From Candidatus Cytomitobacter primus (GTDB lineage: Bacteria; Pseudomonadota; Alphaproteobacteria; CAJXXZ01; 1604HC), in assembly GCF_008189405.1 (NCBI RefSeq), contig NZ_CP043316.1, forward strand, positions 558,258-622,257: a stretch of 64,000 nt of DNA, in the 5' to 3' direction. Shown piece after piece: positions 5,037 through 22,236 of the stretch. The notes under the pieces are model-generated. The model did no database searches, was not told the origin of the DNA, and worked only from the letters and a program-made list of their open reading frames with translations. Numbering within the stretch: position 1 is the stretch's first letter; each line of letters starts with the position of its first letter. A program made the position numbers and the translations under genes.

Positions 5037-5771
5037 ATGATTAATAATAAGATAGAAAATTCTTTTTTGATGAATTGTTTCCAAGAATTTATAAATGAAG
5101 TATTAAAGTTTCGTGAATTAGTATTGTTTAATAAAACAAGCTCAAATGCTAAAGAAATACAGGAGACGTTAATCAGGTTTATTATTTATAAACGAGATTT
5201 AGCAATAGAAGAGGGCACATTAATAGAAGCAGGATATCATGAAACTTCATATATTATGGCTGTATTTGCAGATGAAATCTTCATCAATCTAGATTGGGTT
5301 CATAAAGATGATTGGAAGAAAAATAATTTAGAGACTCAAGTATTTGATACGCATATAGGTGGTAGAAAATTATTTGAGAATATTGATCGTTTCTTGGACT
5401 CTAATGCAACTTATAAATATGATATAGGAAGTGCATACTTGTTTTGCTTAGGTTTAGGTTTCCGTGGAAAATACAGAGGAATAGATGATCATAATACTAT
5501 ACAAAATTATAAAAATAAATTATTTGATATAATCAACAACTATGAATCTAATGTGAATGACAATAGCTTATTCCCACAGGCTAAACAACATACAATTGTA
5601 AAGATCTCTACAGCAAGAATGAGCAGTTATAAAGTATGGTCCATGATCCTTGGGATTACAGTGCTAATTTATGCAAGCTTCAGCTATCTTGTATGGTATA
5701 GATCTGTCAAAGAAATATCTACATTAATCGATATTAGCCAAAAAGATATAGAGAGTATTAAAAATGGATAA
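5037..5771 (+). CDS. tssL: type VI secretion membrane subunit TssL (DotU family)
   Basis: 244 aa. DotU signature blocks YIMAVFADEIFINLDW, IGGRKLFENIDRF, YLFCLGLGFRGKYRG. Single C-terminal TM helix (VWSMILGITVLIYASFSYLVWY). Overlaps tssM by 8 nt. Confidence 0.8.
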   Translation: MINNKIENSFLMNCFQEFINEVLKFRELVLFNKTSSNAKEIQETLIRFIIYKRDLAIEEGTLIEAGYHETSYIMAVFADEIFINLDWVHKDDWKKNNLETQVFDTHIGGRKLFENIDRFLDSNATYKYDIGSAYLFCLGLGFRGKYRGIDDHNTIQNYKNKLFDIINNYESNVNDNSLFPQAKQHTIVKISTARMSSYKVWSMILGITVLIYASFSYLVWYRSVKEISTLIDISQKDIESIKNG

Positions 5772-8700
5772 CTTATTAACTACATTTATTATTAGCATGG
5801 TATCTGCATCAACATTCATGCTTTTAAATAAATCATATGTGAAAATGCCAAAAATAATTGCTTTTTTACGTAAGCATATCAAAAGCTTTGCAAAGTATGT
5901 TGCAAATTTATTCAGATTCGAAGCAGTATTTGATGATAGAATAAATAAATCATTTGACCATAATATGCATATTTTGTACTCATTTTTAGGTAGTGAAAAT
6001 TTCAAATATAAGCTCCCATTTATAATGGTTATTGGATCTGAAAGATCTGGAAAATCTGCCATAATTAATAGCTTGAAATTAGAGCGTACAATTGATGATC
6101 TAACTGAAAAAAATGAATTTTGTAATTGGTCATTTTTCAATGATGCTGTATTTCTTGAGATGCATAGTGCATTATTTTCATCAGGAGATTCATATGTATC
6201 CTCAGATGCAAGTAATTGGAATAAATTATTAAACACACTATCTTACCATAGACCTGAACGACCAATTGATAGCTTAGTTCTAACTATTTCTATAGAAGAT
6301 ATTCTTGATCACTCTATTAATTTAAGCAATATTGCAGAGCATTATTATATCAAACTATGGAAAATGCAAAAAACATTCAAAGTGAATTTTCCTATTTATG
6401 TTGTCTTTACTCATACAGATTTGATTCCAGGATTTTCACACTTTGTGCATGCTATACAAGAAACCCTACAAGATGACATATTCGGATGGTCTAATCCACA
6501 TTCAGTTAATGCAATTGAAAATATAGAATTTATAGAAGATGGAATTGATCAAATTATTAATCGATTAATGTTAATACAACAAGAAATCATGGCAAAAGAA
6601 ATATCTTCAGAAAATGGAATGTTCGTCTTTCCATTTGAAATACATAAACTCAAGCAAAGATTATCAGAATTTATGTACTATATTTTTAAAAGAAATTCAC
6701 TACACGATCATTTTATGTTACGAGGCATTTATTTCACTGGATCATCAAAGCACAATGCATATGTAAACCATGAATTCTCACAATCATTACAAAGTGTAGA
6801 GTTTGGATCGATTGTTAAAGCATCTTCATTGCATACTTCAGATGATATATTATTTACTACTAATTTATTTACAGATAAGATATTCAAAGAAAAAGGACTT
6901 ACTTTCCCATTATCTGGAAATATACTTAATAATTCTGCGAAAGTTAGAATGCTACAATATTTAGTTGGCTCTGTAATAATAGGTGGAATTGTAAGCCTAA
7001 TCCACTATGATTTGAGAATGAACAAAGTAAAATCTGAATTAAAGCATAATATTTCTAATATTCGATTATCAATTCATAATGCAAAATTAATATATAAAGG
7101 GTCATATGATGAGTTAGATAATGCAATATTTGAAGAGCAGTCTATTAAAATAATTAATGCCATGAAGCAAATACACCCTAAAGATTTATTTTCATACTCT
7201 ATGCCACCATCCTGGTTTTCTTCGATCCAAAGCAGGTTGAACACTCTATTAGGCAGAGCATATAATACTGTTGTTTTCAGATTTATTATGAATAAATTTA
7301 ATAATGATCTGAAAATGCTTGTATCTGATTACACTAATGATAAAATATCATACAAAAAGAATTTTCACCCATTACATTCCCGTGAATTCATTGCACTAAA
7401 TTCATATATCACTAAAATTGCTAAATTAGAAAATATACACTATAAAATCAAACGAGTCCCACATCTAAGAAATATTAATGATGTAATATATATAATGAAG
7501 CATCTCCTAAATATAGATGTGAGCAAGAGCCTTATACATAATAAGCGTGTATTCCAAAATGCATTAAAACATGTGCAAGTTGATATTCACTCATTTGATT
7601 CATACAAGAAAAATATTCGCATTAAATCTACAGGATTATTTGATAAATTTATAAATCATGCATTAGAATATGATAAAGTAATTCCTAATATTACAAAAAT
7701 AGAAAGTATTCTAGAGCGTATTGAGCAAAAAGAGAATTACGATATAGAATCATTAACTTCTTATTTTAATCAACTAACATCTGTATTTAACAAACAAGAT
7801 TTGCTGTGGATATCTAGCAATAAATCCAAATTTGGTGAACAAATAAACCACATGCTATATAAAGCGCAGGATAGTAATGTTTTAGGCCTTAAAATTGCAC
7901 AAAACATGAAAGAAAAAATTGAATTAAAGATTAAACAGCTAAAGCAAAAAGTAGTCAAACATAGACTACCTATGATTGGTGTAATATTTCAAGATAATGA
8001 TAATGGACAATTAGATTTTTCTAAAGATTTTGCAGAATTCCAAGGAATGCTTAATTTACTTGCTGGACAAAGTTTTATGAAAAACACTGATTATAAGATC
8101 AATCCTGACCTAAAAAGTAATATAGTTAAATGGAATTTACTCAAACTGGCAGAAATTGTAAAAATAATTAATGAGTTCAATAAATTCTCCAGCCATAAGA
8201 TTCTGTATAAGCATGAAAAAATCACACATGCCATGGCAATGGTCACATGCAGTAGTGTCATTAAAAATATTAAATATAACCTAGTCAGTAGCCAAAGCCA
8301 ATTTGATAATCTTGAATCTGATAATACTTTATTATCTAATATTCATCAAAACCTTGATGAAGCAAACAAATATCTCATTAAAATTTTATTATTTGTCAAA
8401 AACCGAAACTCTAATCTATTTACAGAGCTAAAAAATGTTTTACAAAAGCAAAATATATTATTCTTAGAAAAGTTAGATCAATTACTACAAAAGAAAGATT
8501 TATATAATATTTCTAACTCTGATCTATATTTAAATGGCACAAAAGAAGATATCCAAGAATACATTGCAAAACAGCAGGAACAAATTAAATACCTATCAGA
8601 ACTTTCTATACCTTCTGTACAAATACTAAGCAAAATCTCAGATATAGGATTAAAAATCTACTCTCCTATATTAAATAAATGGTCTGAAATCAATGATGCA

Positions 8701-9591
8701 GTAGTAAGAAGCAAGGAAGGAAAAAGCAATCAAATCAAATCAATAGAGACACTGATAATTACGTCTATTTTGAATAAGAAAAACTGTGATTATATGATTG
8801 CAGATCTTGATCAAAATAGTACAAGCTATTTCGAAAGGAAAAAACATAGCATATTACTTTCTATGAGTAAAAAATGCTTATTTGATAATTATAATACAAT
8901 CAAAGTTCAATATAGAAAAATTGTACAATATTTTAATCAGTATATGGCACACAGATTTCCATTTAATAAGAGCGCTAATGTAGAGATCACACCTGAAGAA
9001 GCTAAGCAATTCTTAGCAATTTGGAATGAGAAATCAATGAATTTAGATCTACTATCACATTACTTGAAACCGAACCATGCATGGATTGCTTTCCTTAAAC
9101 GAACACAAAGTATAATCCCATGGCTAGAATCCATGATAGATGGCAAAAAACATCCAGGGTCATTTATGGTAACTCTGAGGACAAATCGTGATCAAGAAAA
9201 ACTTGGAGATCACATTGCTATTTGGGACCTAAAATTCGGAGATAAAACCATTCACATGAATATGGACCCACAAGAGATTGAACTTAAAAACTACAATATG
9301 CACAATATCTTGCGCTTATCTAAGGAAAGTAAGCACTCATTCGAAAATGGAAAATCCTATGAAGTTAAATATAATGGTTTCTTTGGAATCGTAAAATTAA
9401 TAAATAAATTCTGTGCAAATCACTGCAAACAAAATAAACAGCTTAGATTGAGCATTCCACTACTAAGTGAAAATAGTAATTTAACTGTATGGTGTGATAT
9501 TGAGCTAAAAGGGAAGCTAAAAGAATGGCCAACTTTCCCTAAGCAAGCCCCTAATTTCCCTAAAAGCGAGGTAAAATTATGCATCAATTAA
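5764..9591 (+). CDS. tssM: type VI secretion membrane subunit TssM (IcmF family)
   Basis: 1275 aa. N-terminal TM helix, then a P-loop (LPFIMVIGSERSGKSAIINSL) and a Walker-B-like IYVVFTHTD. A further TM helix near aa 400 (LVGSVIIGGIVSLIHY). Large periplasmic C-terminal region. Sits immediately after the DotU gene and overlaps tssA by 13 nt. Confidence 0.8.
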   Translation: MDNLLTTFIISMVSASTFMLLNKSYVKMPKIIAFLRKHIKSFAKYVANLFRFEAVFDDRINKSFDHNMHILYSFLGSENFKYKLPFIMVIGSERSGKSAIINSLKLERTIDDLTEKNEFCNWSFFNDAVFLEMHSALFSSGDSYVSSDASNWNKLLNTLSYHRPERPIDSLVLTISIEDILDHSINLSNIAEHYYIKLWKMQKTFKVNFPIYVVFTHTDLIPGFSHFVHAIQETLQDDIFGWSNPHSVNAIENIEFIEDGIDQIINRLMLIQQEIMAKEISSENGMFVFPFEIHKLKQRLSEFMYYIFKRNSLHDHFMLRGIYFTGSSKHNAYVNHEFSQSLQSVEFGSIVKASSLHTSDDILFTTNLFTDKIFKEKGLTFPLSGNILNNSAKVRMLQYLVGSVIIGGIVSLIHYDLRMNKVKSELKHNISNIRLSIHNAKLIYKGSYDELDNAIFEEQSIKIINAMKQIHPKDLFSYSMPPSWFSSIQSRLNTLLGRAYNTVVFRFIMNKFNNDLKMLVSDYTNDKISYKKNFHPLHSREFIALNSYITKIAKLENIHYKIKRVPHLRNINDVIYIMKHLLNIDVSKSLIHNKRVFQNALKHVQVDIHSFDSYKKNIRIKSTGLFDKFINHALEYDKVIPNITKIESILERIEQKENYDIESLTSYFNQLTSVFNKQDLLWISSNKSKFGEQINHMLYKAQDSNVLGLKIAQNMKEKIELKIKQLKQKVVKHRLPMIGVIFQDNDNGQLDFSKDFAEFQGMLNLLAGQSFMKNTDYKINPDLKSNIVKWNLLKLAEIVKIINEFNKFSSHKILYKHEKITHAMAMVTCSSVIKNIKYNLVSSQSQFDNLESDNTLLSNIHQNLDEANKYLIKILLFVKNRNSNLFTELKNVLQKQNILFLEKLDQLLQKKDLYNISNSDLYLNGTKEDIQEYIAKQQEQIKYLSELSIPSVQILSKISDIGLKIYSPILNKWSEINDAVVRSKEGKSNQIKSIETLIITSILNKKNCDYMIADLDQNSTSYFERKKHSILLSMSKKCLFDNYNTIKVQYRKIVQYFNQYMAHRFPFNKSANVEITPEEAKQFLAIWNEKSMNLDLLSHYLKPNHAWIAFLKRTQSIIPWLESMIDGKKHPGSFMVTLRTNRDQEKLGDHIAIWDLKFGDKTIHMNMDPQEIELKNYNMHNILRLSKESKHSFENGKSYEVKYNGFFGIVKLINKFCANHCKQNKQLRLSIPLLSENSNLTVWCDIELKGKLKEWPTFPKQAPNFPKSEVKLCIN

Positions 9592-10451
9592 TTGAAATCA
9601 AAAATGCACTCACTAATCCAATAGCAAACATAAGAAATTCCAATATATTTGTACAGCTAGAGACACTAGTTGAGCAACACAGCGATGATCTTCCTAAAGG
9701 GGATTGGTCTATATCTAATGATAAAAAAGATTGGACTAAAATATCTACACTTTGCTTAGAAATATTAGTTAATAATAGTAAAGATATACAAGTCATAATA
9801 TGGCTTATTGAGGCAAATATTCATTTACGTAAAGATGTAAAAGAATCATTTGAGATTCTTGAATATATTATTGATAATCACTGGGATATCCAAGATAAAG
9901 ACTTCGCATATAAGGCTTTTACTAACTTTGATAAAACATTAAATATAATGCTTCCTCAGTATTTTGCTTTATATAAAAATGACAATATCTATTACACTCT
10001 TGCAAGTTTCATACAGAATAAATCCATGACTGATTTTGAGAAGCTTACCACTCAGGAATACGAGTATTCGCTGGAATTAGCAAATATTATCCAATCTCTC
10101 AAAGAAAAAGCAAGTGCAAAGATGGATAATAATATGATGGCTAAATCCATTACTATTACACAGAATTTTATTCAGAAAGTTAGGAATATCATGCAGAATC
10201 AACATATACAAAATGATTCTATAAAACAAAATATAGAAACAGAATCTAACAATATAAACACGCATAATATTACATCACGCGAACAAGCATACCAAATGAT
10301 TCAGGAAATAATGCTATATTTGAAAACTCATGATCCACATAGTGCAACTCCATATTTATTGCAAAAAGCATATGAGTGGGAGAAAAAATCATTTGTAGAT
10401 ATCATGAATGACTTTAATGACCCTGTTATCATTCAAAAAATATTTCAATAG
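9579..10451 (+). CDS. tssA: TssA-like protein (ImpA N-terminal domain)
   Basis: 290 aa. ImpA_N-like block SKDIQVIIWLIEANIHLRKDVKESFEILEYIIDNHWDIQ. Last gene of the overlapping tssL-tssM operon. Shorter than canonical TssA. Confidence 0.6.
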   Translation: MHQLIEIKNALTNPIANIRNSNIFVQLETLVEQHSDDLPKGDWSISNDKKDWTKISTLCLEILVNNSKDIQVIIWLIEANIHLRKDVKESFEILEYIIDNHWDIQDKDFAYKAFTNFDKTLNIMLPQYFALYKNDNIYYTLASFIQNKSMTDFEKLTTQEYEYSLELANIIQSLKEKASAKMDNNMMAKSITITQNFIQKVRNIMQNQHIQNDSIKQNIETESNNINTHNITSREQAYQMIQEIMLYLKTHDPHSATPYLLQKAYEWEKKSFVDIMNDFNDPVIIQKIFQ

Positions 10452-10570
10452 ACATATATCAGAATTATAAGATGTAACCACACACTTACATTAAGTATAA
10501 AGTAATCATATAATCATAATCTGTAAAGCCTTAGAATGCTTATTTCAGGTAGGTTTTCCTGCAAAATCTC

Positions 10571-10599: not shown

Positions 10600-10622
10600 A
10601 AGTCAATTTATAAGGGAGATAT

Positions 10623-12233
10623 ATGAAGAATCTAAGAATTTTATCACTGGTATTATGCTTATCAGTTATGGCAAATGGCCCAGAATTAACGGAATGCACA
10701 AGTAAGTTTGCATATTGTTTGAAGAGTCCTGGTCTCGCAACAGAAGATGCTGTGCAAACCAATCAAATGGAAAAATATACTCAAGCAATTTATGATGAGT
10801 ATAATCAATATGCATTAAGCATTATTCCAAGCTTGGAAGGCAAGAAGTTAAATGTAATTAATATGATGCAAATAGGATATGAAACAAACGAAGATGATGC
10901 AGAAGAACGAGCAGAATATATTAATGATTTAAATGAAGGATCACTGGAAGAATTATATGAAGGATTAACAGAAATTGAAGAACACACTATTCTGCGATAC
11001 GTTTATGAATCTCGTCCTTACATAATGAAGCAGAGTGCTCGCTATGCGGAGTTAGCAGATGCGTATGGTAATTATGACATGGATGGGGATGTATTCAAAA
11101 ATGCTGTGTATCTTGCTGACAGGTCTCAAAATGGAACATTAGAAGTTGATTGGGACTTAGAATCAGATAGGTTGGAAGCTCATAGTTTGTACTACAATTC
11201 AATATATGAGTACAACCTAGAAAATCCAGGATTATCGATGCTGAGCGATAAAGCGGAAGCAGCAAAGGTTAATGCAACTATTTTACAATCCCTATCAAAA
11301 GACAAGGAACATTTTACAAACATTGCAAAGCATATTGCGTTAAAGAAGATGGCAGTTGAGGCGGCAAAAGGCTTGGAGAAATTTAAAATCATGCTTGATG
11401 AGGTTGTTAGACAGGATGCATCTTGGAATGTAATTAGAACTGTCAAGGTAGGGAATGCTATGCAAAAGCATTTTAAGGAGGCTGATAAGTATGTTAGCTG
11501 CCAATCATGGATTCAAGTAACAGATGAAGGAAGTGGCATTGGAACTTATAGAACTATTTTTGGAAGTAAAGATAGAATAAAATTTGCTGAGATCATAGAT
11601 TTATTTAATACAGATAGAGCAAAATGCAAAGAAACTGTTTTGTGTAGATTTAGCAAAGGTTTAGAAAACTATAATAATGATTTTAATAGATTATTGCTAT
11701 ACCCAGATTTCAACATAAGATTTGATCAATTAACTGAGATGACTGTTAATGCACTAGAGGATATGTTAAATGCAATTATTAGGAGTAAGCTTTATTATAA
11801 AGTTGGAAATGGAGGAGGAGACCGAAAATTCCAAGCATATTATCCCGGGGAGGAGCGTAGAGGTGACGTTGAGTTTTTCAAGAAGGATTATGCTGACTGG
11901 TATGCAAAATCTGATGGAGACAAGGCTGTTACAGCATTAAGAAAAGAAGAAGCTGCTAAGCTTGCGAAGGAACGTGATCATGAGGATTATATCGTACACT
12001 TGTTTGACAGAGCAGAGGAATTGCTGAATGGATACGAAGGTGATAAGGACATGATGGGAGAGATCTTTGGAAACTTCTTGTTCTTAAGATGGGCAGAATA
12101 CAAGGAGAATGCTAGAGGGCGAGACTTCATGAACAGTGCAAAGGATGCATTAGAGGGCATGTTAAAACTGGAATCTTCAGACATTGAAAAACTAAATGCA
12201 ATCTCAAACGAAAAAATCAAATCCCTGCAATAA
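10623..12233 (+). CDS. secreted mosaic paralogue family protein, copy 1 (unknown function)
   Basis: 536 aa. Sec signal peptide MKNLRILSLVLCLSVMA|NGPEL. Conserved central block (LRYVYESRPYIMKQSARYAELADAYGNYDMDGDVF...) and conserved C-terminal block (YYPGEERRGDVEFFKKDYADWYAKSDGDK...) shared almost base-for-base with copies at 23735-25070 and 28899-30497. No recognisable domain. Confidence 0.85.
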   Translation: MKNLRILSLVLCLSVMANGPELTECTSKFAYCLKSPGLATEDAVQTNQMEKYTQAIYDEYNQYALSIIPSLEGKKLNVINMMQIGYETNEDDAEERAEYINDLNEGSLEELYEGLTEIEEHTILRYVYESRPYIMKQSARYAELADAYGNYDMDGDVFKNAVYLADRSQNGTLEVDWDLESDRLEAHSLYYNSIYEYNLENPGLSMLSDKAEAAKVNATILQSLSKDKEHFTNIAKHIALKKMAVEAAKGLEKFKIMLDEVVRQDASWNVIRTVKVGNAMQKHFKEADKYVSCQSWIQVTDEGSGIGTYRTIFGSKDRIKFAEIIDLFNTDRAKCKETVLCRFSKGLENYNNDFNRLLLYPDFNIRFDQLTEMTVNALEDMLNAIIRSKLYYKVGNGGGDRKFQAYYPGEERRGDVEFFKKDYADWYAKSDGDKAVTALRKEEAAKLAKERDHEDYIVHLFDRAEELLNGYEGDKDMMGEIFGNFLFLRWAEYKENARGRDFMNSAKDALEGMLKLESSDIEKLNAISNEKIKSLQ

Positions 12234-12290
12234 TATGTCTGTATTAATCCATAAACTTAACAAACCTATATAAGATTAAGGAATTAATAT
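11761..12290 (+). repeat. conserved 3' block of the paralogue family, copy 1 (~530 bp including ~55 bp past the stop)
   Basis: Near-identical to the reverse complement of 23690-24241 (one visible silent mismatch) and highly similar to ~30040-30510. Confidence 0.8.
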
Positions 12291-12983
12291 ATTTGATTTC
12301 CTACTTAAAGCTCATTTATGGAAGTTAAATATAGTAGTTTTCAGATTATTTATTTTCAGAGCATATGCAAGTATTATCATGAAATTATATAAAACAAGAA
12401 AATATTATTATGCATTCCCTAAGCTGTTAAGATGAAGTTGCTTTATAATGGAGTGAAAATCATAGCTCTCGTGAAATAAATACTTATCTTATGGAATGAG
12501 TTAGTTACATTAGGCAAAACTCAGTCTATAATCTTTTAATGTACCGAGTCCTTTCTCAGCAAATCACTAAAAAATATAAGTTTACTGTAGAAATATTGTG
12601 CACGGCTGATACTGCCACATCATTCTAATATGGTGAATTATATATATTAGAAAAGATAAAGAAAATTCTAAGTTAAATTAAAAAAACATTCAAAATCATC
12701 TGAATATTATTTGCTATAATTATAAAATCAATAAGCGAAAATCATGCATAAGCAAACTTCTAATAAAAACATTAATTGAAAGGGGAATTATAAAAGTTTT
12801 GAAGCATTATGCTTTGAGTTATAAATATATGGTTTGTATGATTTAACAAATATGCAAATGAAGAAAATCAAAACATATCATAGCATGGAAGAAATCAGCC
12901 ATAGGATAACAAACAAAATCACATAATAACTTACAAATGCAAAAATCTAATCTACTAGCTATTTAGATAAATTGGATTTTAGA

Positions 12984-13694
12984 TTATTTTGTTGTTTCAT
13001 TATCAGATTGCTTTGACTCTGATTTATCTGATTTTGGTTTATCTTCAGATTGAGCATCGTTTTGTTCAATGCTTTTTCTTGAAACAATTATGTTCCATTT
13101 TCTTTCCATTCTAATAATGAAGAAAGGAAGTTTTTTATTTCTCATGGTTTGCAATATATTGGAAGACTTTCCACCTATTGATCTAAATTCAATTTGACTT
13201 GAAGGAAGAAATGCTTTCACACCCCACGGAAGTAAAGCAACTATAAACCCACCACGTACTTTTTCTATAATAGTTCCTTCAACCAATTTTTTGCTTTGAA
13301 AAATATCTTCTAATTCTTTCCAAGATCTAATATGGTTAACTTTAGAAAAACTAACTACTAAAGATCCATTAGAATCTTCGTGTTTTTCGATCCAAACTGA
13401 AATCAAATCTCCAAGATTAGGAACCTCTCCAAATCCATTAATTTTGAATTCGTTTATATCTATTTTACCTTCGGCTTTAATGCCAATATTAACCCATACA
13501 TAATCTTTAGTAATGCTACTTACTGTAGCTTGAACTATGCTTTTTTCTCTGGGCATAGAAGATAACTTAGTCAGTTCTGACATTGCACTTACGTGTTCTG
13601 ATTTAACCTCTACTATTTGATCGTATTTTGTTTGCTTTGGTTTTAAACTATGCATGTCAACATTATATTCCAACACTTTGTTATAATCAAGCAT
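12984..13694 (-). CDS. S1 RNA-binding domain protein (RpsA-like, short)
   Basis: 236 aa. Two S1-like OB segments (ATVSSITKDYVWVNIGIKAEGKIDINEF and VEGTIIEKVRGGFIVALLPWGVKAFLPSSQIEF). Lys/Ser/Asp-rich tail. Confidence 0.5.
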   Translation of the reverse strand: MLDYNKVLEYNVDMHSLKPKQTKYDQIVEVKSEHVSAMSELTKLSSMPREKSIVQATVSSITKDYVWVNIGIKAEGKIDINEFKINGFGEVPNLGDLISVWIEKHEDSNGSLVVSFSKVNHIRSWKELEDIFQSKKLVEGTIIEKVRGGFIVALLPWGVKAFLPSSQIEFRSIGGKSSNILQTMRNKKLPFFIIRMERKWNIIVSRKSIEQNDAQSEDKPKSDKSESKQSDNETTK

Positions 13695-13753
13695 ATTAGT
13701 AGATATTGCTAAAAATGCACATATAATATATAGATTAGAGGTAAAGGAGTTTT

Positions 13754-15271
13754 ATGAATCAAAATATAAAAGCTAATATGTTGAGCAATTTGCTTGGCAA
13801 AATAGTTAGCTTGTTCTTTCCTATTAAGAAAACAGAAATTAAGAAATACCTTCCTACAGCTATGATGATGTTTATCATTTTATTTAACTATAACGTTGTA
13901 AGAACTTTGAAAGATGCTTTGATCATTGCAGACAGAATATCTGGAGCGGAGGCTGTGAACTTTTTGAAAACATTTGTTGTATTGCCTGCTTCTATTATTT
14001 TTGTGCTTTTGTATAGCAAAATAAGCAATATGTTTAGTAAAACCAATGTGTTTTATGTATGTATCGCGCCATTTATTGTATTTAATATTGTATTTACTTA
14101 TATTTTATACCCTAATGTGGGTTCATTACACCCATCTGCTGAGAGTATTCAAGCTTTGAAGCTTGCTTATCCTAAGCTAAGATCAGTATTTCCTGCGTAT
14201 GGATTATGGACTTATTCTTTGTACTACACATTCTCAGAATTATGGGGAACAGTTGGTATGACATTATTGTTTTGGCAGTTTGCAAACAGAATTGTGAAGA
14301 GTGAAGAATCCAAGAGATTTTACCCATCATTTGGTTTGGTTGGTAATATCGGATTCACAATCGCATCATTTATGGTTATGAATGTTGTTTCTTCACCATC
14401 ATCATTTGCGCAGAATTTTACGTATATTATGAATGTTGTAATCATTTTAAGTCTTGTATTAGTCGCAATATATTGGGGTATCAACAAATATGTACTTACA
14501 GATGAAGATATTGATTGCAATATAAATAAACCTAAAAAGAAGAAAGTAAAGCCTTCATTAGTTGAAAGTTTTAAAATTATATTTTCATCTAAATACTTGG
14601 GATGTATCATGCTTTTGATTTTTTCTTATAACTCTATGATTAATTTAGTAGAAGTTACTTGGAAGAGCCAGGTAAAAGCTTATACATTTTCAAATGATGC
14701 AGAAGCTGCAAGATCAGGTTATACAGCATTAATTGCTAAAACAAATGCATATACCGGATCAGTTTCTATATTATTATTTGCAACAGCAAACTTTTTGTTG
14801 AGTAGATTTAAGTGGGCTGTATCTGCTTCTATTACTCCAATAATCATGGTTTCTACATCCATATTGTTTTTCTTGTTCACAGTATTTCCTAAATTTGCTG
14901 GACCATTAACAAGTATGTTGTCAGTAACACCATTGTTCTTGGCAGTTATTATGGGTGCAATCCAAAATGTTGCAAGTAAAAGTACTAAGTACTCTTTATT
15001 TGACCCTACAAAAGAAATGACATATATTCCTTTGGATTCTGAATTGAAAAGTAAAGGTAAGGCTGCAGTAGACATTGCTGGAAGCAGGATCTCTAAATCA
15101 TTTGGTGGATTAGTACAGTTATTCTTACTATTCGTTACTGGAGGAAGTCAGTTAGATATTGCTCCTTATCTAATGATCTTTATTGTTACAATTGGAGTGA
15201 TTTGGTTTGTAGCTATTAAGCTATTATCAAAACAATATGATGAAGCTTTAAAATCCGATAAGTGTGAATAG
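13754..15271 (+). CDS. tlc: ATP/ADP translocase (nucleotide transporter Tlc/NTT family)
   Basis: 505 aa polytopic membrane protein. N-terminal KKYLPTAMMMFIILFNYNVVRTLKDALII matches the Rickettsia/Chlamydia Tlc signature. Confidence 0.8.
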   Translation: MNQNIKANMLSNLLGKIVSLFFPIKKTEIKKYLPTAMMMFIILFNYNVVRTLKDALIIADRISGAEAVNFLKTFVVLPASIIFVLLYSKISNMFSKTNVFYVCIAPFIVFNIVFTYILYPNVGSLHPSAESIQALKLAYPKLRSVFPAYGLWTYSLYYTFSELWGTVGMTLLFWQFANRIVKSEESKRFYPSFGLVGNIGFTIASFMVMNVVSSPSSFAQNFTYIMNVVIILSLVLVAIYWGINKYVLTDEDIDCNINKPKKKKVKPSLVESFKIIFSSKYLGCIMLLIFSYNSMINLVEVTWKSQVKAYTFSNDAEAARSGYTALIAKTNAYTGSVSILLFATANFLLSRFKWAVSASITPIIMVSTSILFFLFTVFPKFAGPLTSMLSVTPLFLAVIMGAIQNVASKSTKYSLFDPTKEMTYIPLDSELKSKGKAAVDIAGSRISKSFGGLVQLFLLFVTGGSQLDIAPYLMIFIVTIGVIWFVAIKLLSKQYDEALKSDKCE

Positions 15272-15439
15272 AAAATCTTTTCTTTTTAAATGCATTGAGT
15301 GCTTTAATTAGTATTTCATTATCATTGTTTTTTTATCTTTATCTTATTTATTTAATTTTAACTTTTAATTTTTAACCTGATAATGATTAATCATTATATT
15401 TCTATTACAATATGATTTTCTTTATGAAATAATAAAATT

Positions 15440-16420
15440 ATGTTTAATATCGCAATTATCGGGGCTACAGGTCTTATTGGTAGATCTATTATAGATGTAT
15501 TACATGAGCGCGCATTTCCAATTAAGAATTTATACTTATTAAGTAGAGTAGAACAAGAAATTTCATTTAAAGATGAAGTATTAAAATGTACGAAGCTTGA
15601 GGACTTTGATTTTAAGTCTGTAGATATCATTTTTAATGCAACTGATAAAGATGTACTAATGAAATATATTGGCGAGATCACAGAATCTGGAGCATTTTTG
15701 ATTGATAAATCTGAAGCACTTAGAATGGATAAAGATATTCCACTTATTGTTCCAGAAGTTAATTCTGATCAATTAGATAGTTATATTACTAATAATAAAA
15801 TTATTTCTTCTCCAAATTGTGTAGCTATTCCTATGTCCATTATAATTAGAACATTGTCACATAAAACAGCAATTGAACAAATTTTCATGACCACATTTCA
15901 ATCTGTATCTGGAGCAGGCAATAATGGGACTAAAGCATTATTAGATGAAACAAAGAAAAGTTTTATGGCATCAAGTGTGAATGCAACTAATTTCGAAAAA
16001 AGCATAGCATTTGATATTTTGCCTAAAATCGGAAGTTTTAATTCTGACTTTACGACTTCTGAAGAATTGAAAATAAAACAGGAAATGCAGAAGATATTAA
16101 ATAATAAGTTAAATATCTGTGTAACATGCACTCGTGTGCCAGTACTAAAGGGACATGGAGTTGATTTGCATATTCCTTGTAAGTTTAAGGATAGAAATGA
16201 TGCAATTAAAGCACTAAAGAGCTCTGATGTGATTCACGTATGTGATAGAGATGATGCCTATATTACTCAGAAAGAATCCATAGGTGAGGATAAAATTTCT
16301 ATAAGCAGAGTGAGATATATTGATGGAATTTTAAGTATGTGGATTGCATATGATAATGTACGATTTGGTGGATCTGTAAATGGAGTGAAAATTGCTGAAG
16401 CAATTACAAAATCACTTTGA
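15440..16420 (+). CDS. asd: aspartate-semialdehyde dehydrogenase
   Basis: 326 aa. N-terminal Rossmann IAIIGATGLIGR, motif IVPEVN, catalytic SSPNCVAIP. Confidence 0.8.
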   Translation: MFNIAIIGATGLIGRSIIDVLHERAFPIKNLYLLSRVEQEISFKDEVLKCTKLEDFDFKSVDIIFNATDKDVLMKYIGEITESGAFLIDKSEALRMDKDIPLIVPEVNSDQLDSYITNNKIISSPNCVAIPMSIIIRTLSHKTAIEQIFMTTFQSVSGAGNNGTKALLDETKKSFMASSVNATNFEKSIAFDILPKIGSFNSDFTTSEELKIKQEMQKILNNKLNICVTCTRVPVLKGHGVDLHIPCKFKDRNDAIKALKSSDVIHVCDRDDAYITQKESIGEDKISISRVRYIDGILSMWIAYDNVRFGGSVNGVKIAEAITKSL

Positions 16421-16628
16421 TTGTAAAGAAAATAAAATAATAGCTGTACAGCATAGTAATAGCGCAATAATTGTAAAATATATTAACAATGAATAGTATA
16501 ATCGAAATTAATAAGATAAAGTAAAGCTAATATAATTTAATCATATAAGATGAAACAGAATAAAATATGTAGGGTAAAGTGCTTACACATTTACTAATAG
16601 AAAACTGCTATATGCTTTAATAGCGTAT

Positions 16629-17021
16629 CTATTTAGGTTCATAATGTGTCCAATTAGAGAACATGCTATACGCTCTAATAATGTGTCCATCAGGATCTGA
16701 AACTGCAAAAGTACGACCATAACATTCATCAGTTGGTTTTTGCACAACTTTCACATCAAGCTCATTTTGCCATTTATCAAAAAACACATCTACATCTTCT
16801 GTAGATTTCACGTGGATTCCAATTTCAGAAAACCTTACAATAGAAGTGTCTGGAGTTCTGGTTCCTTCACATATTGCAAATGATGAGTCTGCACCAGCTG
16901 CAAATTCTACATAACCAGGGTTAGCAAATACAGGTTTAGCATCAAACAGCTTTTCATAAAAAGCAGTTGAAGATTCCATATTAGATACATAAATAATTTG
17001 TAAATTTGGTCTAATTGTCAT
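16629..17021 (-). CDS. glyoxalase/VOC family protein
   Basis: 130 aa. Paired beta-alpha-beta-beta-beta-like segments typical of lactoylglutathione lyase-like VOC proteins. Confidence 0.45.
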   Translation of the reverse strand: MTIRPNLQIIYVSNMESSTAFYEKLFDAKPVFANPGYVEFAAGADSSFAICEGTRTPDTSIVRFSEIGIHVKSTEDVDVFFDKWQNELDVKVVQKPTDECYGRTFAVSDPDGHIIRAYSMFSNWTHYEPK

Positions 17022-17168
17022 TAAATTTTTTCCTTTGAATTAGAAATAACACTAATTATACCTTTAAACAAGAGTGCTAAATGTGCAAATAATTGCTTTT
17101 CCTCATGGCAAAACATATTCCATTTTAACTAGATATGCATGAATATTCATTATTATATATAGATGCAT

Positions 17169-17879
17169 TTAATTTAAAGATGTGATTTCGCTTAAGTTGT
17201 TGATAAAAGCTTGCATTGTAAATAATCCTGGGTTTTGATTTACAAGCCATTCACATACTTTCAAAGCATCATTTGCATAAATTTTGCGATTAAATACTTG
17301 ATGCTCAAATCGAATCATTTCTTGATTGTTTAAACCAAGGAATTGATGCATAGACATATTATCTCCTGCTCTTAAAGACCATATTTGATCAGCTTGTATT
17401 TTATCATGAAGCTGCTTAGTAGTCCCAGATGGATTGTCTGCTTTGTTTTTATGGTGTACTTCTCCAATTGAAACTGCAAGATTTCTTATTTTATTAATTT
17501 TCTCAATAGAAGATTGAATAATACTCCATGAAATTGATGTGTTTGGAGCCCATAGAATTGGAATAATATTTTGATATGCTTTGTAATCAGATGCAGTATG
17601 ACTGCCTGTAGTTCCAATAAGGATTGGTATATTGTATTGAACAGCTGATTTAATATTATTTAATGTGGATTGATGATTGGAGAAATCCAGAATCACATCA
17701 GCTCCTTTTTCAATATGATTTGATATCTTTGTATTATTTTGCGTTAGTGCAACCCCATGATACTGAGTATTTTCCCTAATAACCGCAGAGTGTATTATTA
17801 TGTTTTGCATTTGAGCAATTTGGATAATAGCTTGACCCATTCTACCATTTGCACCTACTATACATATTTTCATAATCAT
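17169..17879 (-). CDS. dapB: 4-hydroxy-tetrahydrodipicolinate reductase
   Basis: 236 aa. N-terminal MKICIVGANGRMGQAII NAD(P)-binding motif. Length and layout fit DapB. Confidence 0.65.
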   Translation of the reverse strand: MIMKICIVGANGRMGQAIIQIAQMQNIIIHSAVIRENTQYHGVALTQNNTKISNHIEKGADVILDFSNHQSTLNNIKSAVQYNIPILIGTTGSHTASDYKAYQNIIPILWAPNTSISWSIIQSSIEKINKIRNLAVSIGEVHHKNKADNPSGTTKQLHDKIQADQIWSLRAGDNMSMHQFLGLNNQEMIRFEHQVFNRKIYANDALKVCEWLVNQNPGLFTMQAFINNLSEITSLN

Positions 17880-17901
17880 ATTTTAACATCGATCAGATTA
17901 T

Positions 17902-18708
17902 ATGCATATGAATTTACATTCAATGTTTTATTATTCAGCTGATTCTGTTAAGTTTGATCTAATGATTACAGAATATATATTACATGGCATATTTGAAGCT
18001 TTTCCGGTTAGTTCTTCGATGCACTCAATGTTATTTAATTATGCAATGCAAAATAGCTATGTTATGCAAAATATTGGCATAATTGGGATATTACATGGCA
18101 TCACAGCAATTGTGACAATTGTATATTTTCATAAAAGTATAATTAAGTTATTAATAGATTTTATAAAACCAGGTCATTACAATTTTCTTTCTTGGAAACT
18201 ATGTTTGATTCTACTACCTAAATTATTATTTGGATTTATTTACAGAAATGCGAATTTCCCTTTTTCTTTTTATACAATAATTGCATTTGGACTGCTACTT
18301 GCCTTTTATGATATTTATTCCCATCAAAATAAAAAAGCTCATGAAATATCTTATATGCAGTCTATTTTTATTAGTTTTCTAAGTTTATTTGCATTCTTAC
18401 CGGGAGCAAGTAGTTTAGGAACTTACTATACAGCTTTTAGAGCATGCAACATTAATAGGAAGGAATCTCTTGATTATGCATTTATTTTGAATGTGATCCC
18501 ATCTATAGGTGCATTTGTGTTAAGATTTACTTATGTTGAAGTAAATTTAGTACGAATTTTTACTTGCATGTTTGTATACTTATTTGCACTAATTCTTTGT
18601 AGAAAATTAATAAATTATTTATATTTGCTAGGTATTTATAGAGTGATTATAGGAATATGGGTATGTCAAAACATAAATATACAAAAATACTTTTACTGTG
18701 CTTTTTAA
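17902..18708 (+). CDS. uppP: undecaprenyl-diphosphatase (BacA/UppP family)
   Basis: 268 aa polytopic. EAFPVSSSMHS block resembles the UppP TEFLPVSSTGH motif and PGASSLGT resembles PGxSRSG. Somewhat divergent. Confidence 0.5.
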   Translation: MHMNLHSMFYYSADSVKFDLMITEYILHGIFEAFPVSSSMHSMLFNYAMQNSYVMQNIGIIGILHGITAIVTIVYFHKSIIKLLIDFIKPGHYNFLSWKLCLILLPKLLFGFIYRNANFPFSFYTIIAFGLLLAFYDIYSHQNKKAHEISYMQSIFISFLSLFAFLPGASSLGTYYTAFRACNINRKESLDYAFILNVIPSIGAFVLRFTYVEVNLVRIFTCMFVYLFALILCRKLINYLYLLGIYRVIIGIWVCQNINIQKYFYCAF

Positions 18709-20369
18709 TTGTTGGATGTGATAAGAAATCTGATAAGAAAGAAACAATTAATTCAAAGATAGCTTCTAGTATACAAAAAGAAGATTGGTATGCAGCCTCG
18801 AAGCTGCTTAATTTACATTTAAACATGAAAAGCTCTGCTTCAATGCATCTAGCAAATGGTTTTATTTACGATAAACTTGCAAAGCAAGATCCATCCTATG
18901 CAGGATTATCAGTTATTGCATATAAAAGAGCATTGAATTTAGATCCAAATAATTGGTCTGCTTCATTAGCAATCGGTAAATATTATATGAGAGAACATGA
19001 TTACTTAAAGGCGATCAGCGCATTTGCAAAGACATTGACTTCTAATGAAAATAATTTCGAAGCATTATATGGAATGGCAAATGCTGCATATGCAACCAGA
19101 AACATTACATTAGCAAAAAATTGCATAGATAAAGCTATTGATTTACGTGGTGATAATAAATTAGTGAATAGGTTGGCTGCATTGATTTATGCTGCACAAA
19201 ATAACTCTCGAGCAGATAAATATGCAAATAAATATGCATTTATGGAAGATGACTTGTATGAAATTAAATATTTAAGAGACAGGATTCAAGACTGGAAGAA
19301 AACTCATAAAAAAATGAGATACAATCCTAATTTCATGAAATCTTTTGATAGCCCTGATACAAATCAGAAGGATGAAAATATTACAATTGAGTGTGTAATT
19401 CTAAGCTTTAATGAGTCAGGTGCATTTTCTCGTGGAAATAATTTCTTAGAAACTTTACAAGAATTTAAAAGAGATGAATTTACTAAAGGGTTAAGTATCA
19501 GAATGGGAAATAACTCACAAGTTGAAACTGGGTTAGCTTCTAGTCCTGTATATAGTAATAATCAAGATAAGAAATATATATTTGATAATGGGAAATGGAT
19601 TTTAAGTCCAGATCTGAATGATCATAGTAAATTAATTAAGAAAGGTTTTTCAATTGGATTTGATAGCATTAGATATAATTTAAATATTCTGAACTCTAGC
19701 AGCTCTATAATTGATATAATTTCTAGGCCAATTATGCAGGTTTCATCAAAAAATGGTAAAGGTGCATTTGATTCTAATGATAAAAGTTTTGTAAATACTG
19801 GTGGAGATGTAGGTTCTGCATTATCAAATATTCCATCTGGAGTAAAGCTAGAAGTTGAAGCAAATCAGGTCGATAAGGACCATATTATGTTAGGTGTAAT
19901 GTTGGAAATAAGCAAAACAACCTTCAAAAACAACATTGGATCTCTGAATGATAATGCTAATGTGATTAGTGCTCAATTACAAACACAAATCAAAGCTAAA
20001 TTAAATGAAACAATGGTTATTGGTGGTGTATATAGTAATGTGAATGAATCTTCTAAATCAGGAGTTCCTGGCGCACAAAATATGCCATTATTAGATTTAG
20101 TGCTTGCAAATAAAAGTACTCATACTTCTAAAAAGTCTGTAATGATGCTATTAACTGCAAAAAACACACAAGAATCTAAAGTGATGGAAGTTGATATTGA
20201 TCGCATGGAAAACGTTGTTCTATTAAAACAAAGTGAGCCATCATTCTTTAAGCACAAATATAATAGAGAAAAAACTATAAAACAACAAGTACATGCATAT
20301 AGAAGAGAGGATATAAAGTCGCTTAATATATCTAATAATACAATACAATCATTTGCTGAAAGAATATAA
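18657..20369 (+). CDS. TPR-repeat lipoprotein with C-terminal secretin-like domain
   Basis: 570 aa. Lipobox LIVGC. TPR-like repeats from about aa 40-200. The C-terminus (ETMVIGGVYSNVNESSKSGVPGAQNMPLLDLVLANKSTHTSKKSVMMLLTAKNT) matches the secretin C-terminal signature (GGL...VP.LgdIP.lG.LF...eLlifitP). Confidence 0.5.
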   Translation: MGMSKHKYTKILLLCFLIVGCDKKSDKKETINSKIASSIQKEDWYAASKLLNLHLNMKSSASMHLANGFIYDKLAKQDPSYAGLSVIAYKRALNLDPNNWSASLAIGKYYMREHDYLKAISAFAKTLTSNENNFEALYGMANAAYATRNITLAKNCIDKAIDLRGDNKLVNRLAALIYAAQNNSRADKYANKYAFMEDDLYEIKYLRDRIQDWKKTHKKMRYNPNFMKSFDSPDTNQKDENITIECVILSFNESGAFSRGNNFLETLQEFKRDEFTKGLSIRMGNNSQVETGLASSPVYSNNQDKKYIFDNGKWILSPDLNDHSKLIKKGFSIGFDSIRYNLNILNSSSSIIDIISRPIMQVSSKNGKGAFDSNDKSFVNTGGDVGSALSNIPSGVKLEVEANQVDKDHIMLGVMLEISKTTFKNNIGSLNDNANVISAQLQTQIKAKLNETMVIGGVYSNVNESSKSGVPGAQNMPLLDLVLANKSTHTSKKSVMMLLTAKNTQESKVMEVDIDRMENVVLLKQSEPSFFKHKYNREKTIKQQVHAYRREDIKSLNISNNTIQSFAERI

Positions 20370-20476
20370 TAAATATGGTTAAATTATATGATATCTGTAT
20401 AGTGAATTTAACTTAATTTTTGCTCAATAATACATTAAGGGCTTGATTAACCCAAAATTTATGGTAGATTAGTACC

Positions 20477-22150: not shown

Positions 22151-22236
22151 TAGACACGCTGAGCAGTGAAGAATCTGATGAAAGTGAAGAACTTGATGAA
22201 GATATAGAAAATATACAATTTCTAAAAAATGAGCTA

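What the first reader, a model, noticed from the sequence alone, without database searches (positions are those of the whole stretch)
5037..10451. tssL-tssM-tssA type VI secretion module in a reduced, AT-rich Tlc-bearing genome
Three overlapping genes carry clear DotU, IcmF (P-loop GSERSGKS) and ImpA_N signatures. The same window holds vgrG (25.8-28.8 kb) and a tssE-like gene (51.2 kb). tssB, tssC, hcp, tssF, tssG, tssK, tssJ and clpV are absent here. The T6SS is therefore either scattered around the chromosome, as happens in eroding genomes, or reduced to a non-canonical subset. T6SS in an ATP/ADP-translocase-bearing, apparently LPS-reduced alphaproteobacterium is uncommon and deserves a closer look.
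Basis: partly seen in the sequence, partly recalled or inferred. Interest (0 to 1): 0.6.

Follow-up and report, generated by a model that had tools for sequence, protein, structure and literature searches.

The report
Known scattered T6SS genes in Cytomitobacter

Summary
Window 5037-10451 carries three intact, translationally coupled genes: tssL (DotU, E 9e-28), tssM (IcmF-related N domain, E 9e-46, Walker A GSERSGKS) and tssA (ImpA_N, E 6e-13). vgrG-ywqK (25218-28768), a tssE-like gene (51182-51556) and a Tlc translocase are also present. No tssB, tssC, hcp, tssF, tssG, tssK or clpV lies in the window or within 10 kb either side.

The window is Ca. Cytomitobacter primus (Holosporales, 622 kb). 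George et al. (bioRxiv 10.1101/719211) already reported tssABCEFGIKLM plus vgrG in this genome, with hcp and tssJ missing. Midha et al. [quoted passage not shown] A 2025 review calls T6SS nearly universal in the group.

Additions from this work:
- The module is a fragment of an ancestral lipoprotein-tssK-L-M-A-B-C-hcp-E-F-G cluster.
- An orphan family of proteins with a signal peptide flanks vgrG and follows tssA. Its inverted copies bound an 11.4-kb segment that is inverted between two public assemblies.

The parts
5037..5771 (+). tssL (DotU-family inner-membrane anchor, short form without a peptidoglycan-binding extension)
   Evidence: Pfam DotU 97.8 bits. TIGR03349 scores 90.1 against a cut-off of 89.95. 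The T4B IcmH/DotU model scores 48.9, below its cut-off of 50. A single C-terminal hydrophobic helix lies at aa 200-221. The best solved relative is V. cholerae TssL VCA0115, E 3.6e-9. It is 64-71% identical to orthologues in Cytomitobacter relatives.
5764..9591 (+). tssM (IcmF-family membrane-complex subunit with a divergent periplasmic domain)
9579..10451 (+). tssA (short ImpA_N-type TssA)
   Evidence: Pfam ImpA_N 49.3 bits. TIGR03363 E 1.7e-29, below its cut-off. The C-terminal 45 aa weakly match solved TssA C-terminal domains 6h8e/6h8f, E 9e-4. It follows tssM directly in about 25 of the related loci, across several phyla.
10623..12233 (+). P536, copy 1 of an orphan family with a Sec-type signal peptide. 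It has its own upstream region and is not a core T6SS gene.
   Evidence: No Pfam, NCBIfam or PDB hit. Across 5.8 billion and 1.84 billion proteins the only homologues are C. primus paralogues plus one relative, P0124. The repeat includes 87 bp upstream of the start codon. The AF2 model is poor, pLDDT 41.
12284..23684 (.). Segment bounded by inverted P536-family repeats. It lies in the opposite orientation in the other public assembly (OX638200.1). It carries S1-domain, tlc, asd, glyoxalase, dapB, uppP, TPR-secretin and two LRR genes.
   Evidence: blastn of L001 and L046 against the window. The inverted repeats are 10993-11496/24703-24200 and 11762-12283/24206-23685, 98.6-98.9% identical.
23735..25070 (-). 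P536 family copy 3. In this assembly it is split into two ORFs (24186-25070 and 23735-24241) by a deletion between 7-bp TATGTTA repeats. It is intact (535 aa) in OX638200.1.
   Evidence: Alignment A1. Proteins P0123, P0125 and P0126. Junction sequence.
25218..25763 (-). ywqK-like MORN-repeat protein, translationally coupled to vgrG. The literature calls it an immunity protein.
   Evidence: Weak MORN_2 match. It is 61% identical to the gene directly downstream of vgrG in relative L047. George et al. and Midha et al. describe the [ywqK-vgrG] pair.
25763..28768 (-). vgrG (T6SS spike)
   Evidence: TIGR03361 277.9 bits, above its cut-off. Pfam Phage_GPD, Phage_base_V and Gp5_trimer_C. P. aeruginosa VgrG1 E 4e-35.
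28899..30497 (+). P532, copy 2 of the P536 family, transcribed divergently from vgrG
   Evidence: 72% identical to P536 in a mosaic of near-identical and divergent blocks. Relative L047 has the same layout, with a paralogue divergent upstream of vgrG and another downstream.
51182..51556 (+). tssE-like baseplate gene (gp25 family), isolated between recA and a ComM/ChlI-type gene
   Evidence: TIGR03357 E 2.9e-11 and Pfam GPW_gp25 E 2.2e-5, both just below their cut-offs. My TssE HMM gives E 4.5e-8. The orthologue in MAG L009 lies 4 kb downstream of tssA.

Best explanation
Window 5037-10451 is the tssL-tssM-tssA operon of the chromosomal type VI secretion system of Candidatus Cytomitobacter primus, a 622-kb Holosporales endosymbiont of Diplonema japonicum.

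Proposed mechanism, by analogy with studied T6SSs (inferred, not shown here):
- TssL and TssM form the inner-membrane-anchored membrane complex.
- TssM is a P-loop NTPase with a long periplasmic arm ending in a canonical-fold C-terminal domain.
- TssA primes and caps assembly of the baseplate and sheath.

The module is a vertically inherited fragment of an ancestral contiguous cluster: lipoprotein-tssK-tssL-tssM-tssA-tssB-tssC-hcp-tssE-tssF-tssG. In Holosporales this cluster has been broken into several conserved blocks. In C. primus tssK has also left the block, vgrG-ywqK lies 15 kb away and tssE 41 kb away. tssB, tssC, tssF, tssG and tssK lie elsewhere in the genome according to the literature.

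The genes look maintained by selection and probably belong to a working, host-directed, modified T6SS.
For: Shown here:
- Domain hits sit above Pfam cut-offs, and the three ORFs are intact and overlapping.
- The source was identified by an exact protein match to C. primus records.
- tssL-tssM-tssA is a conserved unit in about 25 of the 41 related loci, across several phyla.
- Free-living relatives (Bryobacteraceae L012, Insolitispirillum L013) carry tssK upstream and tssB, tssC and hcp downstream of the triplet. L012 continues with tssE and then ORFs in the tssF and tssG positions, which I named by position and size and did not scan.
- Orthologues are as conserved as essential envelope genes beside them. 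Against MAG L004: TssL 71%, TssM 51%, TssA 43%, compared with BamA 52% and RseP 48%.
- The bamA-rseP neighbourhood is shared among Cytomitobacter relatives. A crude NJ tree without support values groups the reduced endosymbionts Cytomitobacter, Nesciobacter and Gromoviella. Both fit vertical descent.

From the literature:
- C. primus encodes tssABCEFGIKLM, vgrG and a PAAR-like gene.
- The block organisation is conserved in Holosporales, and the genes are transcribed in the Bodo endosymbiont.
- T6SS is near-universal in Holosporineae.
Against: - Full-length NCBIfam equivalog models are below their cut-offs: TssM 159 against 388 bits, TssA 104 against 161 bits.
- The periplasmic 730 aa of TssM have no Pfam or PDB sequence match. 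The fold match rests on a predicted model.
- Only two hydrophobic helices were detected in TssM, against the canonical three.
- Hcp, TssJ and (for C. primus) ClpV are reported missing. A canonical firing cycle is therefore not guaranteed.
- I could not inspect the rest of the genome myself.
- There are no expression or imaging data for this organism.
- Promoter scans are uninformative in this AT-rich DNA: 58 found against 57 expected.
Confidence: 0.9

Rival explanations
1. The genes are a decaying remnant. The T6SS lost its tube (Hcp), outer-membrane lipoprotein (TssJ) and recycling ATPase (ClpV) and no longer fires. tssL, tssM and tssA persist only because erosion is incomplete.
For: George et al. 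report hcp and tssJ missing in all diplonemid symbionts and do not list tssH for C. primus. The genes are scattered. A neighbouring T6SS-linked gene, P536 copy 3, is disrupted in this assembly. Nesciobacter has no detectable tssA after tssM.
Against: All three ORFs are intact. Walker A/B residues are invariant and start/stop overlaps are retained. Conservation equals that of essential neighbours across genera whose genomes are only about 0.6 Mb, where useless genes disappear quickly. The 'missing' parts may be detection failures. In related clusters the lipoprotein upstream of tssK is missed by the TssJ model in 11 of 14 members, and in the other three it matches only weakly (best E 4.4e-4), below curated significance. 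Midha et al. found Hcp-like and TssJ-like genes in another holosporalean only with InterProScan.
Confidence: 0.1
2. The DotU/IcmF pair belongs to a Dot/Icm-type type IVB secretion system rather than a T6SS.
For: DotU and IcmF families are shared by T4BSS and T6SS. The T4B IcmH/DotU model scores 48.9 bits, just under its cut-off of 50.
Against: A T6SS-specific tssA (ImpA_N) is translationally coupled to tssM. vgrG and tssE are in the same window. In relatives the same triplet is embedded between tssK and tssB-tssC-hcp. The TssM C-terminal fold matches T6SS TssM. No other Dot/Icm family appears among the window's genes.
Confidence: 0.01
3. The module was acquired recently by horizontal transfer, as for the plasmid-borne T6SS of the rickettsial diplonemid symbiont Sneabacter.
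For: George et al. show HGT of a T6SS into Sneabacter. The TssM subclass is spread over many phyla.
Against: GC content of tssL, tssM and tssA is 28.6-28.9%, close to neighbouring bamA at 29.4% and slightly below the window mean of 30.8%. The position next to bamA-rseP is shared by several Cytomitobacter-clade genomes. TssM similarity falls off in step with organismal relatedness: 58, 51, 40, 31 and 24%. In a crude NJ tree without support values the reduced endosymbionts Cytomitobacter, Nesciobacter and Gromoviella group together. George et al. judged the system ancestral to Cytomitobacter and Nesciobacter.
Confidence: 0.03

Closest known systems
The 'modified T6SS' of diplonemid endosymbionts (George et al. 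2019/2020, bioRxiv 10.1101/719211)
   Same: Same organism and same genes. C. primus is listed with tssABCEFGIKLM, vgrG and iglG/PAAR. YwqK lies next to VgrG and LRR proteins lie nearby. tlc is present in three copies.
   Different: Nothing differs in kind. This report adds the local anatomy, the ancestral cluster order, the predicted TssM C-terminal fold and the P536 repeat/inversion, none of which is described there.
[quoted passage not shown] 2021, PMC8163844)
   Same: The tssL-tssM-tssA order and the ywqK-vgrG pair match. Scattering over several loci is the rule in the order.
   Different: In C. primus tssK is not upstream of tssL; rseP and bamA are there instead. hcp is reported absent in Cytomitobacter, whereas Paracaedibacter-like genomes keep tssB-tssC-hcp.
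Canonical T6SS-i membrane complex TssJ-TssL-TssM of enteroaggregative E. coli (PDB 4y7m, 6hs7)
   Different: Pfam ImcF-related and IcmF_C domains are not detectable. Sequence identity over the matched fold is 8%. No TssJ (SciN) gene has been recognised. Only two hydrophobic helices were detected, against three in EAEC TssM.
Contiguous T6SS clusters of free-living bacteria with the same TssM subclass (Insolitispirillum peregrinum, Bryobacteraceae MAGs)
   Same: The same PF14331-only TssM with adjacent tssL and tssA.
   Different: Those clusters are complete and contiguous, with a small lipoprotein and tssK upstream and tssB, tssC and hcp downstream; L012 continues with tssE. Cytomitobacter keeps only the L-M-A core at this site.

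Membership tests
T6SS TssL (DotU family) | DotU cytoplasmic domain scoring above curated cut-offs | tested here: met
   Pfam PF09850 97.8 bits against 27. TIGR03349 90.1 against 89.95.
T6SS TssL (DotU family) | Single C-terminal transmembrane anchor, and a gene adjacent to tssM | tested here: met
   Hydrophobic segment at aa 200-221 of 244. There is an 8-nt overlap with tssM.
T6SS TssM (IcmF family) | IcmF-related N-terminal P-loop domain with Walker A | tested here: met
   PF14331 156.8 bits. GSERSGKS is present, and G91, G96 and K97 are invariant. hhalign E 1.8e-42 against canonical TssM.
T6SS TssM (IcmF family) | Periplasmic ImcF-related (PF06761) and IcmF_C (PF06744) domains recognisable by sequence; full-length equivalog TIGR03348 | tested here: not met
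   No Pfam hit beyond aa 380. TIGR03348 scores 159 bits against a cut-off of 388. The profile gives no PDB sequence hit. There is only a weak hhalign match, E 3e-4 with probability 39%, over the RYPF-motif region.
T6SS TssM (IcmF family) | C-terminal periplasmic domain with the TssM fold (the TssJ-binding domain in EAEC) | tested here: met
T6SS TssM (IcmF family) | Three transmembrane helices, two before and one after the cytoplasmic domain | tested here: inconclusive
   A simple hydropathy scan finds two, at aa 3-22 and 394-414. No dedicated topology predictor was available.
T6SS TssA | ImpA_N N-terminal domain | tested here: met
   PF06812 49.3 bits against 26.9.
T6SS TssA | Full-length equivalog model and an oligomerising C-terminal domain | tested here: inconclusive
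   TIGR03363 scores 103.6 bits against a cut-off of 160.85. The C-terminus weakly matches TssA C-terminal domains 6h8e/6h8f at E 9e-4 and 7e-3.
Complete T6SS (13 core components) | Sheath TssB/TssC and baseplate TssF/TssG/TssK encoded in the genome | not testable with these tools
   Absent from the window and 10-kb flanks. The rest of the genome could not be fetched. George et al. list tssB, C, E, F, G and K for C. primus.
Complete T6SS (13 core components) | Hcp tube, TssJ lipoprotein and ClpV ATPase | not testable with these tools
   None in the window or flanks. They are reported missing genome-wide. Caveat: related clusters carry a TssJ-like lipoprotein that the TssJ model misses in 11 of 14 members.
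Complete T6SS (13 core components) | VgrG spike and TssE | tested here: met
   VgrG TIGR03361 277.9 bits, above its cut-off. TssE-like is just below cut-offs but supported by three profiles and by orthology with L009.
Dot/Icm type IVB secretion system | IcmH/DotU IVB equivalog above cut-off, and other dot/icm genes nearby | tested here: not met
   NF038228 scores 48.9 against 50. No Dot/Icm families occur among the window's genes.

The most novel reading that the evidence does not exclude
The Cytomitobacter T6SS may be a working injection machine whose tube, outer-membrane anchor and recycling parts have been replaced by unrecognisably divergent or non-homologous proteins. Its divergent TssM periplasmic arm would then dock to an unknown partner.

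The lineage-restricted P536 family is part of this reading. It carries a signal peptide, flanks vgrG in two genomes and sits right after tssA here. It would be a new T6SS-linked factor whose inverted, gene-converting copies let an 11.4-kb segment flip by homologous recombination. That segment carries tlc, a TPR-secretin and two LRR proteins.
Probability: 0.12. Interest if true: 0.55.

Novelty: already known. Interest (0 to 1): 0.2.

Why it matters
The T6SS is the leading candidate for how Holosporales symbionts manipulate their protist hosts. A version that truly works without a recognisable Hcp tube or TssJ would stretch the accepted minimal parts list of contractile injection systems.

That question was already raised in print for this genome, and this window alone cannot answer it. 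The finding's value is confirmatory: it shows the first-stage reader can recognise a divergent T6SS membrane module from raw sequence.

The small additions made here give concrete handles for anyone who takes up the 'modified T6SS' question experimentally. They are the ancestral cluster order, the predicted TssM C-terminal fold, the hint that 'missing' TssJ may be a detection problem, and the vgrG-flanking repeat family with an inversion between assemblies.

Tried and rejected
- A profile of 18 TssM homologues found no TssM among PDB sequences.
- AF2 of P536 with a 4-sequence alignment gave pLDDT 41, so no fold search was attempted.
- Word-index and exhaustive HMMER searches for P536 homologues found only paralogues and one relative.
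- Promoter and terminator scans were at background level in this AT-rich DNA.
- The first attempt to seed a genome scan with an 18-sequence TssM alignment failed for lack of a conserved stretch.
- The genome-collection scan did not return C. primus itself. I could not reach the tssB/tssC/(hcp), tssF/tssG or tssK loci of this genome. Walking is limited to 10 kb beyond window genes, and those flanks hold no T6SS genes.
- One contig look-up failed because my ORF start differed from the called gene.
- I considered whether the 164-aa ORF 54119-54613 or the 100-aa ORF 51837-52139 near tssE could be a cryptic Hcp or PAAR protein. Neither matches any T6SS profile, and the former looks ChpT-like.
- I considered the TPR-secretin (18657-20369) as an outer-membrane substitute for TssJ. 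There is no evidence beyond proximity, and George et al. assign it to a reduced T2SS/T4P. T2SSE and T2SSF genes lie just past the window end.
Full report
**1. What is in the sequence**

Window 5037-10451 holds three + strand ORFs at exactly the coordinates given: 5037-5771 (244 aa), 5764-9591 (1275 aa) and 9579-10451 (290 aa). The first two overlap by 8 nt (…AAAAATGGATAA…). The second and third overlap by 13 nt, with a GAGG Shine-Dalgarno-like motif 8 nt upstream of the third start. This is the pattern expected of a translationally coupled operon.

Pfam assigns the following, all above gathering cut-offs:
- DotU, 97.8 bits, E 8.7e-28.
- IcmF-related_N, 156.8 bits, E 8.6e-46.
- ImpA_N, 49.3 bits, E 6.2e-13.

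Its G, G and K, plus a downstream PID…T motif, are invariant in an alignment of 18 homologues.

The other items in the finding also check out:
- vgrG lies at 25763-28768 on the - strand (TIGR03361 277.9 bits, above its cut-off). A YwqK/MORN-like gene is coupled to its 3' end at 25218-25763.
- A 124-aa gp25/TssE-like gene lies at 51182-51556 (TIGR03357 E 2.9e-11, just under its cut-off).
- A Tlc ATP/ADP translocase lies at 13754-15271 (E 6e-147).

**2. What is not in the window**

Every ORF of 100 aa or more that is not nested inside a longer ORF on the other strand was scanned against Pfam/NCBIfam or had precomputed Pfam hits. None is a sheath, tube, baseplate-wedge or ClpV protein.

I then took TssB, TssC, Hcp, TssE, TssF, TssG, TssK and a TssJ-like lipoprotein from related clusters. 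With these I ran tblastn and family HMMs at E<=10 over all six-frame ORFs of 40 aa or more. The search covered the window and 10 kb on each side (L044, L045). Only the TssE-like gene was found (E 4.5e-8).

**3. Whose genome this is, and what is already published**

The TssM protein is identical to records of Candidatus Cytomitobacter primus. It lies on contigs of 622,378 bp (OX638200.1) and 622,357 bp. GenBank protein numbering (QEK38772 for TssM, QEK38784 and QEK38785 for the two halves of the split P536 copy) matches the window's gene order. The window therefore corresponds to the original George et al. assembly.

George et al. (bioRxiv 10.1101/719211, later in Current Biology) sequenced this Holosporales endosymbiont of Diplonema japonicum. 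They reported 'modified type VI secretion systems':
- Their Table S3 lists tssABCEFGIKLM, tssI/vgrG, cts2N and iglG/PAAR for C. primus.
- They state that the inner tube (TssD/Hcp) and the outer-membrane component (TssJ) are missing in all four diplonemid symbionts and in related Holosporaceae.
- They note a YwqK-family protein next to VgrG and LRR proteins nearby.
- They count three tlc copies.

Midha et al. [quoted passage not shown] They also report that these genes are transcribed in the Bodo saltans symbiont.

The suggestion that a T6SS is unusual in such an organism does not hold.

**4. T6SS, not Dot/Icm**

- tssA is T6SS-specific and coupled to tssM.
- vgrG and tssE lie in the same window.
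- The T4B-specific IcmH/DotU model is below its cut-off, while the general DotU/TssL model is above it.
- TssL's closest solved relative is V. cholerae TssL VCA0115.
- In relatives the same triplet is flanked by tssK and tssB-tssC-hcp.

**5. Origin of the module**

A scan of species-representative genomes with a TssM alignment returned 41 loci. tssL is directly upstream of tssM in about 33 of them and tssA directly downstream in about 25. They span Holosporales, Rhodospirillales, Acidobacteriota, Bacteroidota, Gammaproteobacteria and others.

In two free-living members (Bryobacteraceae L012 and Insolitispirillum L013), Pfam confirms tssK upstream of the triplet and tssB, tssC and hcp downstream. 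L012 continues with tssE and then ORFs in the tssF and tssG positions, which I named by position and size and did not scan. A small lipoprotein (LVGC or MTAC lipobox) precedes tssK in both. The Cytomitobacter operon is therefore the L-M-A core of that ancestral cluster. Here rseP and bamA lie upstream instead of tssK.

Several lines fit vertical inheritance under constraint, as George et al. concluded:
- The bamA-rseP neighbourhood recurs in several Cytomitobacter-clade genomes.
- TssM identity decays in step with relatedness: 58% to C. indipagum, 51% to two MAGs, 40% to MAG HK-STAS-PROT-4, 31% to Nesciobacter and 24% to Gromoviella.
- A crude NJ tree without support values groups the reduced endosymbionts Cytomitobacter, Nesciobacter and Gromoviella.
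- GC content of tssL, tssM and tssA is 28.6-28.9%, close to neighbouring bamA at 29.4% and slightly below the window mean of 30.8%.
- Against MAG L004, TssL (71%), TssM (51%) and TssA (43%) are as conserved as the essential neighbours BamA (52%) and RseP (48%).

**6. The divergent TssM**

Only the N-terminal third of the protein has a Pfam domain. The full-length TssM model TIGR03348 scores 159 bits against a cut-off of 388. A family profile finds no TssM among PDB sequences.

Profile-profile comparison with canonical TssMs (those carrying PF06761 and PF06744) aligns the first 460 columns or so at E 1.8e-42. The rest aligns only weakly, at E 3e-4 with probability 39%, around a shared (R/K)(Y/F)PF motif.

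In line with this, the lipoprotein upstream of tssK occurs in about 20 related loci. The NCBIfam TssJ model matches it only weakly, and in just 3 of 14 members (best E 4.4e-4). 'TssJ absent' in this T6SS lineage may therefore be partly a detection problem. I could not test this in C. primus, because only the window and its flanks were reachable.

**7. How it most likely works**

This section is inferred from studied T6SSs and not shown here.
- TssL carries a DotU domain and a single C-terminal helix at aa 200-221. TssM has hydrophobic helices at aa 3-22 and 394-414, which would put the P-loop domain in the cytoplasm and about 860 residues in the periplasm. Together they form the envelope-spanning membrane complex.
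- TssA is a short form. Its N-terminal ImpA_N domain and a C-terminal stretch weakly resemble solved TssA C-terminal domains. It would prime baseplate docking and sheath polymerisation.
- VgrG forms the spike and TssE is part of the baseplate.
- The remaining parts are encoded elsewhere, according to the literature.

Whether the machine fires without a recognisable Hcp and ClpV is open. I put about 0.9 on 'genuine, selectively maintained T6SS membrane/priming module'. Within that, I put roughly 0.7-0.8 on the system being functional in some form.

**8. Side observation: a repeat family and an inversion**

The 536-aa ORF after tssA (10623-12233) has a typical Sec signal peptide (MKNLRILSLVLCLSVMA|NG) and no database family. 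It has two paralogues flanking vgrG:
- 28899-30497 (532 aa), divergent from vgrG and 72% identical.
- A copy at 23735-25070 on the - strand, downstream of ywqK.

The copies are mosaics. Blocks of 91-99% DNA identity include 87 bp of upstream sequence, and they alternate with blocks that show no DNA similarity. This pattern suggests gene conversion.

Searches of 5.8 billion and 1.84 billion proteins found only these paralogues plus one protein, P0124, at E 1.8e-4. P0124 comes from a Cytomitobacter-like genome (OZ247489) and lies downstream of vgrG-ywqK there. A second paralogue in that genome is divergent upstream of vgrG. That is the same layout as in the window. The two genomes share only 23-31% identity in this family, against 61% for YwqK and 51% for TssM.

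The family is thus a fast-evolving, positionally conserved companion of vgrG. Its function is unknown. The AF2 model was poor, at pLDDT 41.

The copy after tssA and the copy next to ywqK are inverted repeats. In the other public assembly (OX638200.1) the 11.4-kb segment between them (12284-23684) lies in the opposite orientation. That segment carries tlc, asd, dapB, uppP, a TPR-secretin and two LRR genes. In OX638200.1 the third copy is intact at 535 aa. In the window the third copy carries a frameshifting deletion bounded by a 7-bp TATGTTA repeat. I cannot tell whether this reflects a real recombination polymorphism or an assembly difference.

**9. Verdict**

The 'scattered and non-canonical' reading agrees with three publications that already describe it for this genome and order. 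It is a known system. Interest is low for the finding as such. The unresolved question of a T6SS without recognisable Hcp, TssJ and ClpV, together with the vgrG-flanking repeat family, leaves a modest residual novelty.

Noticed in passing
window 10536-12283, 23685-25157, 28845-30506: There are three copies of an orphan family of about 535 aa with a Sec-type signal peptide. One follows tssA and two flank vgrG. They are mosaics of 91-99% identical DNA blocks, including 87 bp upstream of the start, and unrelated blocks. The only homologues in public data are in a Cytomitobacter-like genome, again flanking vgrG (L047).
   Followed up: yes
window 12284-23684, compared with L001 and L046 (OX638200.1): The 11.4-kb segment between the inverted repeat copies is in the opposite orientation in the second public assembly of the same species. 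This is either a recombination polymorphism or an assembly difference.
   Followed up: partly
window 24180-24230: Copy 3 of the repeat family is split into two ORFs here by a roughly 270-bp deletion bounded by a 7-bp TATGTTA direct repeat. The same gene is intact (535 aa, WP_284442952.1) in OX638200.1.
   Followed up: yes
L012:7038-7505, L013:6551-7057 and about 18 other related loci: A small lipoprotein with a lipobox cysteine lies immediately upstream of tssK in T6SS clusters that share this TssM subclass. Pfam does not recognise it. The NCBIfam TssJ model matches it only weakly, in 3 of 14 members. Reports of 'missing TssJ' in this lineage may be detection failures.
   Followed up: partly
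window 18657-20369; L044:6436-9089: A TPR-secretin fusion gene lies inside the invertible segment. T2SSE and T2SSF genes lie just past the window's 3' end. George et al. interpret these as a reduced T2SS/T4P.
   Followed up: no
window 20477-22150 and 22237-23241: Two leucine-rich-repeat proteins (557 and 334 aa) lie between the secretin and the vgrG island. They are candidate host-interaction factors and were also noted by George et al.
   Followed up: no
window 294-4872: The gene order is fabZ-skp(ompH)-bamA-rseP, with no lpxD between skp and fabZ and no lpxA beyond fabZ (RNase H follows in L045). This fits loss of lipid A synthesis but was not checked genome-wide.
   Followed up: no
L006 (Nesciobacter abundans) 13582-15400: No tssA is detectable downstream of tssM in Nesciobacter. 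fabZ and bamA follow instead. This agrees with the absence of tssA in George et al. Table S3.
   Followed up: partly
window 57858-58466; L047:11678-12340: A small PLD-family protein (PLDc_2, about 200 aa) lies next to the transketolase-family gene. In the relative L047 the vgrG island sits immediately beside its orthologue. From my own knowledge, its size and family resemble the small rickettsial phospholipase D. A link to the T6SS is speculative.
   Followed up: no
window 51182-51556: The tssE-like gene stands alone between recA and a ComM/Mg-chelatase-like gene. In MAG HK-STAS-PROT-4 (L009) its orthologue is only 4 kb downstream of tssA. This illustrates progressive dispersal of the cluster.
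   Followed up: partly
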